The position numbers and the translations under genes were made by a program. The notes beneath the pieces are model-generated. The model was not told where the DNA came from. It saw only the letters and a list, made by a program, of their open reading frames with translations, and searched no databases. A DNA stretch of 64,000 nucleotides, taken from the NCBI GenBank assembly GCA_009914755.4, contig CP086569.2, forward strand, positions 768,001-832,000. The letters run 5' to 3'. Shown piece by piece: positions 47,210 to 48,736 of the stretch (position 1 is its first letter; every line of letters begins with the position of its first letter). This DNA comes from the human T2T-CHM13v2.0 reference genome, Homo sapiens.

Positions 47210-48736
47210 TTTTTTTTTTTTTTTTTTTTTTTTTGAGGCAGAGTCTCGCTCTGTCACCCAGGCTGGAGTGCAGTGGCATGATCTTGACTCACTGCAACTT
47301 CTGCCTCCCGGGTTGAAGCGATTCTCCTGCCTCAGCCTCCTGAGTAGCTGGGATTACAGGCACCCGCCACCACACCTGGCTTATTTTGGTATTTTTAGTA
47401 GACAGGGGGTTTCGTCATTTTGGCCAGGCTGGTATCGAACTACTGACCTCGTGATCTGCCCGCCTCAGCCTCCCAAATTGCTGGGATTACAGGCATGAGC
47501 CACCGCGCCCAGCCTGCTTTTTTTCTTTTCTTTTCTTCTTTTTGAGACAGAGTCTCGCTCTGTCACCCAGGCTGGAGTGCAGTGGCATGATCTTGACTCA
47601 CTGCAACTTCTGCCTCCCGGGTTGAAGCGATTCTCCTGCCTCAGCCTCCTGAGTAGCTGGGATTACAGGCACCCGCCACCACACCTGGCTTATTTTGGTA
47701 TTTTTAGTAGACAGGGGGTTTCGTCATTTTGGCCAGGCTGGTATCGAACTACTGACCTCGTGATCTGCCCGCCTCAGCCTCCCAAATTGCTGGGATTACA
47801 GGCATGAGCCACCGCGCCCAGCCTGCTTTTTTTCTTTTCTTTTCTTCTTTTTGAGACAGAGTCTCGCTCTGTCACCCAGGCTGGAGTGCAGTGGCATGAT
47901 CTTGACTCACTGCAACTTCTGCCTCCCAGGTTCAAATGATTATCCTGCCTCAGCCTCCTGAGTAGCTGGGATTACAGGCACCTGCCACCACACCTGGCTT
48001 ATTTTGGTATTTTTAGTAGAGAGGACGTTTCTTCATTTTGGCCAGGCTGGTATCGAACTACTGACCTCATGATCTGCCCACCTCAGCCTCCCAAAGTGCT
48101 GCGATTACAGGCGTGAGCCACTACGCCCAGCCTGCTTTTTTATTTTCTTTTTTTCTTTTTGAGGCAGAGTCTCGCTCTGTCACCCAGGCTGGAGTGCAGT
48201 GGCATGATCTTGACTCACTGCAACTTCTGCCTCCCAGGTTCAAATGATTCTCCTGCCTCAGCCTCCTGAGTAGCTGGGATTACAAGCACCTGCCACCACA
48301 CCTGGCTTATTTTGGTATTTTTGGTAGACAGGACGTTTCTTCATTTTGGCCAGGCTGGTATTGAACTACTGACCTCATGATCTGCCCGCCTCAGCCTCCC
48401 AAAGTGCTGAGATTACAGAAGTGAGCCACTGCACCCAGATATTTTTTTTTTTTTGGGACAGAGTCTTGCTCTGTCGCCCAGGCTGGAGTGCAGAGGCACA
48501 ATCTCGGCTCACTGCAACCTCCGCCTCCCGGGTTCAAGCGATCCTCCTGCCTCAGCCTCCAGAGTAGCTGGGATTACAGACACCTGCCACCATGGCTGAC
48601 TAATCTTTGCATTATTAGTATACACAGGGTTTCGTCATTTTGGCCAGGCTGGTCTCAAACTCCTGACCTCAGGCAATCTGCCCACCTCGGCCTCCCAAAG
48701 TCCTGGGATTACAGGCGTGAGCCACCTCGCCCGGCC
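47210..48736 (-). repeat. Head-to-tail tandem array of 5 minus-orientation Alu elements with T-rich linkers and a ~305-310-bp period. Units 1 and 2 are essentially identical and units 3-5 are progressively diverged.
   Basis: Units lie at 47210-47515, 47516-47824, 47825-48133, 48134-48438 and 48439-48736. ORF-track entries 47268-47498 and 47577-47807 are 76-aa identical translations offset by 309 bp. Each unit starts tgctttttttcttttcttttcttctttttgagacagagtctcgctctgtcacccaggctggagtgcagtggcatgatcttgactcactgcaacttctgcc. Confidence 0.92.

What the first reader, a model, noticed from the sequence alone, without database searches (positions are those of the whole stretch)
47210..48736. Second tandem Alu array: five units with a 309-bp period and a gradient of divergence
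Five minus-orientation Alus are linked by a T-rich linker (tgctttttttcttttcttttcttctttttgag), which is effectively the Alu's own poly-T plus ~20 bp. Units 1 and 2 (47210-47515 and 47516-47824) are identical over at least 230 bp, as the ORF-track duplicates 47268-47498 and 47577-47807 show. Unit 3 differs at ~10 positions, such as ttcaaatgatt for ttgaagcgatt and gagaggacgtttcttc for gacagggggtttcgtc. Unit 4 resembles unit 3. Unit 5 is closest to a standard Alu consensus (ggttcaagcgatcctcc, ctggtctcaaactcc). This left-to-right gradient suggests stepwise unequal crossover from an ancestral right-hand copy, with the most recent duplication at the left edge. Two independent Alu tandem arrays within 64 kb suggest a locus-wide tendency toward tandem amplification, also reflected in the many minisatellites nearby.
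Basis: seen in the sequence. Interest (0 to 1): 0.6.

Follow-up and report, generated by a model that had tools for sequence, protein, structure and literature searches.

The report
Four-copy Alu tandem duplication plus neighbour
One old Alu element has been copied head-to-tail at the DNA level into four units, the newest copy still error-free, and it sits beside an unrelated fifth Alu; this is an ordinary by-product of unequal recombination in a repeat-rich primate region with no sign of function.

Summary
TRF finds a 309-bp period with 5.0 copies at 47207-48736, and Rfam shows each unit is a dimeric, 7SL-derived Alu on the minus strand.

The five units are not one family. Units 1-4 are 92.8-99.6% identical, above every one of 253 pairs of other Alus in the window (mean 83.8%, maximum 90.0%). 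They share 20 private substitutions and a T-rich linker that starts with GC. Unit 5 is 81.6-86.0% identical to them, which is within the random range. It has a different tail and differs by a 2-bp subfamily-type indel. It is an independent neighbouring insertion, not the ancestral copy.

The divergence pattern is a tree, (U1=U2),(U3,U4), not a simple gradient from the right. Sequence 47239-47618 equals 47548-47927 exactly, a 380-bp run at a 309-bp offset. Unit 2 is therefore a unit-3-left/unit-1-right chimera, the signature of one very recent unequal crossover or slippage that took a three-unit array to four.

No orthologue or second allele could be retrieved, so copy-number polymorphism is untested. 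This is a known kind of feature (a TE-derived tandem repeat) and of low interest.

The parts
47207..47515 (-). Unit 1 (309 bp). It consists of GC, a pure T26 tail (47209-47234) and a full-length AluS body of the Sq/Sp-like type that lacks CT at consensus positions 65-66.
   Evidence: From 47239 onward the body is identical to unit 2.
47516..47824 (-). Unit 2 (309 bp), a recombinant. Its tail and first 103 bp are identical to unit 3, and positions 33-309 are identical to unit 1.
   Evidence: it mismatches U1 only at unit positions 10, 15, 20, 23 and 32, and U3 only at positions >=104 (17 sites). The chance of such perfect segregation is 7.6e-5.
47825..48133 (-). Unit 3 (309 bp). It is 93.6-93.9% identical to U1/U2 and 95.7% identical to U4.
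   Evidence: 8 derived sites are shared only with U4.
48134..48438 (-). Unit 4 (305 bp), the most diverged member of the duplication family. It has a variant T-rich linker and its Alu 5' end is cut or altered (CCCAG followed by ATAT).
48439..48736 (-). Unit 5, an independent neighbouring AluS. It is Sx-like, with CT at consensus positions 65-66, and has its own ATAT+T13 tail. It is not part of the duplication family.
   Evidence: 81.6-86.0% identity to U1-4, and 8-90% of control pairs are at least as similar. The indel is and the shared-site count.
47239..47927 (.). Block of perfect 309-bp periodicity (2.23 copies with no mismatch). This is the footprint of the most recent duplication.
   Evidence: 47239-47618 is identical to 47548-47927.
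47548..47618 (.). The 71-bp interval (unit positions 33-103) that must contain the exchange point of the last unequal crossover or slippage. The equivalent intervals are 47239-47309 and 47857-47927.
   Evidence: the last U1-type difference is at 47547 and the first U3-type difference at 47619.
48630..48645 (-). Patch TTTCGTCATTTTGGCC in unit 5, identical to 47410-47425 (U1) and 47719-47734 (U2). It carries three non-consensus bases shared with the otherwise unrelated array. It is a candidate short gene-conversion tract.
   Evidence: none of 31 other Alus in the window has this combination.
48810..49062 (+). A 5'-truncated plus-strand AluSx with an A-tail. It lies 73 bp from unit 5 and forms an inverted Alu pair with it. 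It is context, not part of the array.

Best explanation
What it is: an AluS element (call it X) was retrotransposed head-to-tail next to a pre-existing, unrelated AluS (unit 5). X then sat as a single copy long enough to collect about 20 private substitutions.

How the array grew:
- X was duplicated at the DNA level together with its T-rich tail and 2-3 non-Alu bases. The period of 309 bp is the roughly 280-bp body plus a roughly 29-bp tail.
- One daughter collected 8 more substitutions and then duplicated again, giving units 3 and 4.
- Very recently, one unequal homologous exchange (or replication slippage) occurred between the left unit and unit 3 of a three-unit array. It inserted a fourth unit, present-day unit 2, which is a chimera of unit-3-left and unit-1-right.

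Function: none is implied. The array is a neutral product of non-allelic homologous recombination between adjacent repeats in a region that is 40% tandem repeat.

Shown: the Alu identity of the units, the four-versus-one split, the tree, and the chimeric unit. Inferred: the order of the retrotranspositions, the molecular mechanism of the first duplication, and the ages.
For: - Period and copy number.
- Dimeric 7SL-derived units on the minus strand. Full-length Alu matches.
- U1-U4 pairwise body identity is 92.8-99.6%, against a control maximum of 90.0% over 253 pairs from 23 other full-length Alus in the window.
- All of U1-4 share 20 substitutions relative to both the typed consensus and the window-majority Alu. 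Eight are non-CpG, and the controls share 0-1 of those eight.
- Informative sites: U3+U4 8, U1+U4 2, U1+U3 0.
- A 380-bp exact run at a 309-bp offset, with perfect segregation of U2's differences (5 against U1, all at positions <=32; 17 against U3, all at positions >=104; P=7.6e-5).
- U5 has the CT dinucleotide that U1-4 lack. The same indel splits the window's other Alus 15:8.
- Junction sequences differ: GC+T-rich for U1-U4, ATAT+T13 for U5.
- Adjacent same-strand Alus produced by independent insertion are common and peak at a spacing of about 310 bp (PMC3592446). In this window such pairs are 82-88% identical.
- TE-derived tandem repeats and their expansion by unequal crossover or NAHR are documented (PMC3389668, PMC9659126).
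Against: - No target-site duplications could be recognised for X or for unit 5, so independent insertion of unit 5 rests on sequence divergence and the indel alone.
- Unit 5 shares a three-base non-consensus patch with units 1 and 2. This needs an extra event, either short gene conversion or coincidence.
- The clock is uneven: 3 private changes on the U1/2 lineage against 14 on the U4 lineage (Tajima test 3:15, p about 0.005-0.008).
- Two sites group U1 with U4.
- The junction of the first duplication is not explained, because only 'GC' is common to the left flank and the linkers.
They were cross-checked only against the majority sequence of 23 Alus in the window.
Confidence: 0.85

Rival explanations
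1. All five units descend from unit 5, the ancestral right-hand copy, by stepwise unequal crossover, with divergence decreasing toward the left.
For: - Identity to unit 1 falls monotonically from left to right: 99.6, 93.6, 93.2, 85.7.
- Unit 5 shares the patch CAAAATGACGAAA with units 1/2, and no other Alu in the window has that combination.
- TRF scores the region as 5.0 copies.
Against: - U5 against U1-4 is 81.6-86.0%, inside the distribution for unrelated Alus (mean 83.8, sd 1.8).
- U5 shares only 2 of 8 non-CpG stem substitutions, both within one 5-bp patch. The flanking stem sites at consensus positions 81 and 127 are not shared.
- A 2-bp subfamily-type indel separates U5 from U1-4.
- U5 has a different tail and junction, with no GC+T-rich linker.
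- U5 is not the unit closest to consensus.
Confidence: 0.05
2. Units 1 and 2 are identical because of recent gene conversion (homogenisation) within an older four-unit array. On this reading no new duplication occurred and copy number did not change.
For: - Gene conversion between Alus is well known (general knowledge).
- There are hints of conversion at this locus: the U5 patch, the slow U1/2 lineage, and the conflicting sites at consensus positions 112 and 277.
Against: - A single 309-bp duplication explains both identity blocks at once (U2-left = U3-left and U2-right = U1-right; 380-bp exact run).
- Conversion would explain only the U1/U2 body identity. It leaves the perfect identity of the highly mutable T-rich linkers of U2 and U3 as a coincidence, whereas the U3 and U4 linkers differ at several positions.
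Confidence: 0.08
3. Assembly artefact. The perfect extra 309-bp unit is a mis-assembly (over-expansion) of a three-unit array.
For: - The extra unit is error-free over 380 bp.
- Perfect tandem copies longer than a short read are a classic source of collapse or expansion errors (general knowledge).
Against: - No read data are available.
- The rest of the window contains many long, well-resolved VNTRs, which suggests a long-read-quality assembly.
- Even if true, this changes only 4 units to 3, not the nature of the feature.
Confidence: 0.03
4. Units 1-4 are four independent retrotranspositions, each inserted into the A-tail of the previous Alu.
For: Insertion of an Alu into another Alu's A-tail is common and gives a spacing of about 310 bp (PMC3592446).
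Against: - The four units share 20 private substitutions and have near-identical linkers. Their identities exceed every control pair.
- AluS source genes were not active recently enough to yield identical copies that carry 10% divergence from consensus (general knowledge).
Confidence: 0.01

Closest known systems
TE-derived tandem repeats / Alu-derived minisatellites (Ahmed & Liang 2012, PMC3389668; Jurka & Gentles 2006 as cited there; review PMC9659126)
   Same: A transposable-element sequence is amplified in situ at the DNA level into a head-to-tail array. Expansion is by unequal crossover, NAHR or slippage. Copy number is low (mostly 2-3, with a minority above 3).
   Different: - Most catalogued Alu-derived repeats involve Alu fragments tens of bp long. 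Here the unit is the whole element plus its tail (309 bp).
- The flanking short direct repeats required by the Jurka-Gentles model could not be identified.
'2-Alu tandems' produced by independent insertion of one Alu next to or into the A-tail of another (GRM study, PMC3592446: genome-wide peak at about 310 bp = 282 + about 28-bp tail)
   Same: Same orientation, head-to-tail, with a spacing of about 300-310 bp. This describes the relation between unit 5 and the array, and it explains why TRF counts five copies.
   Different: Units 1-4 are not independent insertions. They share private mutations and linkers, and they exceed the background Alu-Alu identity.
Alu-Alu non-allelic homologous recombination (the mechanism behind many human deletions and duplications; general knowledge)
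   Same: Homologous exchange between misaligned Alus. The chimeric unit 2 has a single switch point inside a 71-bp identity block, which is the classic NAHR product.
   Different: The partners here are adjacent array units, so the result is a one-unit copy-number change rather than a kilobase-scale deletion or duplication.
Array 1 in the same window (6845-9688, 8 x 360 bp)
   Same: A minus-strand AluS amplified at the DNA level. Its units include a shared non-Alu linker.
   Different: It has a different founder Alu (<=86% identity to array 2). It is much older (79-91% between units) and has a longer unit with about 75 bp of unique linker plus (TC)n(TTAT)n.

Membership tests
Alu SINE (dimeric, 7SL-derived) | Two 7SL/SRP-RNA-related monomers in tandem, with the right monomer longer | tested here: met
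   every unit gives two Metazoa_SRP (RF00017) matches on the minus strand, one of about 148 nt and one of about 115 nt. E-values range from 1e-16 to 6e-06, with the weakest at 0.5 for the left arm of U4.
Alu SINE (dimeric, 7SL-derived) | Full-length (about 280 bp) match to Alu consensus, followed by an A-rich tail | tested here: met
   blastn covers consensus positions 1-280 at 87.5-90.4% identity. T-rich tails of 13-29 nt lie on the + strand.
Alu SINE (dimeric, 7SL-derived) | Target-site duplications flanking each retrotransposed copy | tested here: inconclusive
   no direct repeat of >=6 bp between the candidate flanks. Old or T-rich TSDs would not be visible.
DNA-level tandem duplication array (TE-derived tandem repeat) | Constant head-to-tail period | tested here: met
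   unit lengths are 309, 309, 309 and 305 bp for U1-U4, and 298 bp for U5.
DNA-level tandem duplication array (TE-derived tandem repeat) | Units more similar to each other than unrelated family members are, and sharing private substitutions | tested here: met
   This holds for U1-U4 only: 92.8-99.6% against a control maximum of 90.0%, with 20 shared stem substitutions. It does not hold for U5 (81.6-86.0%).
DNA-level tandem duplication array (TE-derived tandem repeat) | Shared junction/linker sequence that includes non-element bases | tested here: met
   The U1/U2, U2/U3 and U3/U4 junctions read ...CCCAGCC-T-GC-T-rich. The U4/U5 junction differs (CCCAG-ATAT-T13).
DNA-level tandem duplication array (TE-derived tandem repeat) | Short direct repeats flanking the founder unit (Jurka-Gentles initiation model) | tested here: inconclusive
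   only 'GC' is common to the left flank and the linkers.
VNTR (copy-number-polymorphic tandem repeat) | Different copy numbers among individuals | not testable with these tools
   - Flank-specific and array-specific 28-35-mers gave 0 hits in genome contigs, viral contigs and metagenome contigs.
- ORF look-ups found nothing on record.
Independent tandem Alu insertions | Copies belong to different source lineages and show only background similarity | tested here: met
   This holds for U5 against the array: a 2-bp CT indel and identity within the control range. It does not hold among U1-U4.

The most novel reading that the evidence does not exclude
The array is a young, still-active Alu 'VNTR'. 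On this reading the 3-to-4-unit step is lineage-specific or still polymorphic in the population. The slow-evolving left unit and the patch shared with the unrelated neighbour would reflect ongoing gene conversion (concerted evolution) among full-length Alus in a VNTR hotspot. That would make the locus a small natural model for how whole SINEs seed satellite-like arrays.
Probability: 0.3. Interest if true: 0.25.

Novelty: new member of a known kind. Interest (0 to 1): 0.12.

Why it matters
It matters little beyond annotation. The case shows that a TRF call of "5 copies" over adjacent Alus can mix a true duplication family with an unrelated neighbour. It also gives a clean textbook example of a chimeric unit that records a single unequal exchange. 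If the four-unit state is polymorphic, the locus would be a minor structural variant that short reads cannot genotype. Nothing suggests a gene, a regulatory element or a new mechanism.

Tried and rejected
- I searched for orthologous or allelic copies so that copy number could be compared. Exact 28-35-mers from the left flank, the right flank and an array-specific stretch gave no hits in genome contigs, viral contigs or metagenome contigs.
- Exact-protein look-ups of three ORFs from the region (48488-48763, 46604-46954, 47268-47498) found nothing on record. The 76-aa duplicated ORFs are read-throughs of antisense Alu sequence. They are not evidence of a gene.
- The TSD search around the array, around unit 5 and in the linkers found nothing above 5 bp apart from T-runs.
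- I considered whether unit 4 or any other unit is an X/unit-5 chimera. The private sites of U4 do not match U5, so I rejected this.
- I considered whether arrays 1 and 2 are copies of each other. Their identity is <=86.4%, within the background range, so I rejected this.
- Sub-threshold Rfam miRNA hits (mir-1268, mir-3135, mir-1285) belong to Alu-derived families and fall far below the gathering scores.

Full report
**Observation.** TRF reports a tandem repeat at 47207-48736 with a period of 309 bp, 5.0 copies, 91% matches and 1% indels.

- Reading the sequence and aligning the units gives these boundaries: U1 47207-47515, U2 47516-47824, U3 47825-48133, U4 48134-48438 and U5 48439-48736.
- Rfam scanning shows that each unit contains two Metazoan SRP-RNA-like monomers on the minus strand.
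AluS-type consensus sequences score best.
- So the feature is real. These are five full-length, dimeric, minus-strand Alus, head-to-tail, each preceded on the + strand by its T-rich tail.
- The period is what is expected for any two abutting Alus: 282 bp plus a tail of about 28 bp. A genome-wide peak at about 310 bp has been described for "2-Alu tandems" (PMC3592446).
They are read-throughs of antisense Alu sequence.

**Is the similarity more than chance?** The window itself supplies the control. I aligned 23 other full-length Alus from the window with the five units.

- The 253 control pairs are 83.8% identical on average (sd 1.8, 99th percentile 88.2, maximum 90.0).
- Units 1-4 are 92.8-99.6% identical to each other, above every control pair.
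- Unit 5 is 85.7, 86.0, 83.9 and 81.6% identical to units 1-4. Between 8% and 90% of control pairs are at least that similar.
- Polarising with the consensus and with the majority sequence of the window's Alus, units 1-4 share 20 derived substitutions. By the count, 8 of the shared stem substitutions are non-CpG. Control Alus share 0-1 of those eight and unit 5 shares 2.
- Unit 5 also carries the CT dinucleotide at consensus positions 65-66 (…CACCTGAGG…), which units 1-4 lack (…CACGAGG…). The same indel splits the window's other Alus 15:8, and to my knowledge it distinguishes AluS subfamilies.
- The junctions differ too. Three of them read CCCAGCC-T-GC followed by a 26-nt T-rich tract. The U4/U5 junction reads CCCAG-ATAT-T13.
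- Conclusion: units 1-4 are a DNA-level duplication family derived from one Alu, which I call X. Unit 5 is an independent neighbour that TRF counts only because all Alus are about 84% alike.

**History within the family.** Informative sites give U3+U4 8, U1+U4 2 and U1+U3 0. Private changes number 3 on the U1/2 lineage, 3 on U3 and 6 on U4. The structure is therefore a tree, ((U1=U2),(U3,U4)), rather than a simple gradient from the right.

The most recent event can be read directly from the sequence.

- At an offset of 309 bp the sequence is exactly identical for 380 bp: 47239-47618 = 47548-47927.
- Unit 2 differs from unit 1 only at unit positions 10, 15, 20, 23 and 32. These are four T/C differences in the tail plus the GAGG/GAGA site.
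- Unit 2 differs from unit 3 only at positions >=104 (17 sites).
- The chance that 5 + 17 differences fall perfectly on either side of one point is 7.6e-5.
- This is the expected product of one unequal exchange, or one slippage event, between the left unit and unit 3 of a three-unit array. The switch point lies inside the 71-bp identity block 47548-47618.
- With no mismatch in 380 bp, the 95% upper age bound is about 1.6-3.3 Myr, for assumed rates of 2.5-1.2e-9 per site per year. The rates are my assumption.
- Earlier steps are inferred. X was single-copy for most of its life (20 stem changes). A first duplication carried along GC plus the tail. One daughter then accumulated 8 changes and duplicated into U3 and U4, which now differ by 4.3%.

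**Points that do not fit neatly** (note).

- The lineages are not clock-like. The Tajima test gives 3:15 for U1 against U4 (p about 0.005-0.008) and 5:12 for U1 against U3 (p about 0.1).
- A three-base non-consensus patch, CAAAATGACGAAA in the Alu sense, is shared by U1, U2 and the otherwise unrelated U5. Its window positions are 47410-47425, 47719-47734 and 48630-48645. None of 31 other Alus in the window has the combination. The flanking stem sites at consensus positions 81 and 127 are not shared, so a short gene-conversion tract of under about 45 bp between neighbours is the simplest reading.
- The sites at consensus positions 112 and 277 group U1 with U4.
- No TSDs were found, and only "GC" is common to the left flank and the linkers. 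The mechanism of the very first duplication stays open: microhomology or non-homologous joining, or direct-repeat-mediated duplication as in the Jurka-Gentles model cited in PMC3389668.

- Correct: this is tandem amplification by unequal exchange, the youngest copy is at the left, and the locus is prone to tandem duplication.
- On that last point, 25.9 kb of the 64 kb window (40%) is tandem repeat, with 20 loci of period >=20.
- Array 1 at 6845-9688 is a genuine, older and unrelated Alu array. Its eight 360-bp units share a non-Alu linker.
- Incorrect: unit 5 is neither the ancestor nor the unit closest to consensus. U1/U2 are 90.0-90.4% identical to consensus, against 88.3-88.9% for U5.
- Incorrect: the quoted linker joins only two of the four junctions exactly.
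- Incorrect: unit 3 differs from unit 2 at 17 sites, not about 10.

**Comparison with what is known.**

- TE-derived tandem repeats are catalogued. There are about 7,276 TE-derived minisatellites in human, 2,663 of them Alu-associated (PMC9659126, citing PMC3389668). Their growth by unequal crossover or NAHR is the standard explanation.
- Whole-Alu units with four copies lie toward the large end of that spectrum. In PMC3389668 the mean is about 2.3 units, and about 8% of AluS-derived repeats exceed 3 units. They are the same kind of object.
- I found no sign of coding capacity, structured RNA beyond the Alu fold itself, or any regulatory signature.

**What could not be done.** No orthologue or second allele could be retrieved from any available collection. 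Copy-number polymorphism, lineage specificity and assembly correctness therefore remain untested. The subfamily names rest on consensus sequences recalled from memory, cross-checked only against the window's own majority Alu sequence.

**Verdict.** This is a real but ordinary feature: a four-unit DNA-level tandem duplication of one AluS, next to an independent AluS. Its most recent unequal-exchange event is recorded cleanly in a chimeric unit. Interest is low.

Noticed in passing
window 6845-9688: The first Alu array has eight 360-bp units. Each is a minus-strand AluSx plus a shared non-Alu linker, AATCTGTTTAATCTTTCTATCATCTC(TC)n(TTAT)n. Units are 79-91% identical to each other and <=86% identical to array 2. 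This is a genuine, much older and independent DNA-level array.
   Followed up: partly
window 1-64000: 40% of the window (25.9 kb) is tandem repeat by TRF, with 20 separate loci of period >=20. They include long VNTRs of 45, 48, 71 and 34 bp and kilobase-scale (GATA)n, (TCCA)n and (TC)n tracts. This suggests a VNTR hotspot, possibly subtelomeric.
   Followed up: partly
window 47207-48438: The array units have diverged unevenly. The U1/2 lineage has 3 private substitutions, against 11 for the U3 lineage and 14 for the U4 lineage, since the first duplication (Tajima test 3:15, p about 0.005-0.008). This may reflect gene conversion toward consensus-like states.
   Followed up: partly
window 47410-47425, 47719-47734, 48630-48645: The patch TTTCGTCATTTTGGCC, with three non-consensus bases, is shared by U1, U2 and the otherwise unrelated unit 5. 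It is absent as a combination from 31 other Alus in the window. It is a candidate short gene-conversion tract.
   Followed up: partly
window 48456-48736 (-) and 48810-49044 (+): This is an inverted Alu pair separated by only 73 bp, with arms about 82% complementary. Closely spaced inverted Alus are reputedly recombinogenic (general knowledge). That may add to local instability.
   Followed up: no
window 20681-20882 and 20905-21108: Two plus-strand Alus are both 5'-truncated at consensus position about 80-83. They have a 226-bp period and are 82% identical. The shared truncation point suggests an ancient tandem duplication rather than two insertions.
   Followed up: partly
window 44955-45455, 46767-46828, 49665-49892: Young non-Alu tandem duplications flank the array: 248 bp x 2 (94%), 27 bp x 2.3 (94%) and 76 bp x 3.0 (98%).
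   Followed up: no
window 47209-47234 versus 47518-47543, 47827-47852, 48136-48160: The outermost tail is a pure T26 run, while the three internal tails of the same length are interrupted by C or A. The U2 and U3 tails are identical and the U4 tail differs.
   Followed up: partly
window 47255-48602 (several): Sub-threshold Rfam matches to mir-1268, mir-3135 and mir-1285 lie inside the Alus. These are Alu-derived miRNA families, and all scores are well below the gathering thresholds.
   Followed up: no
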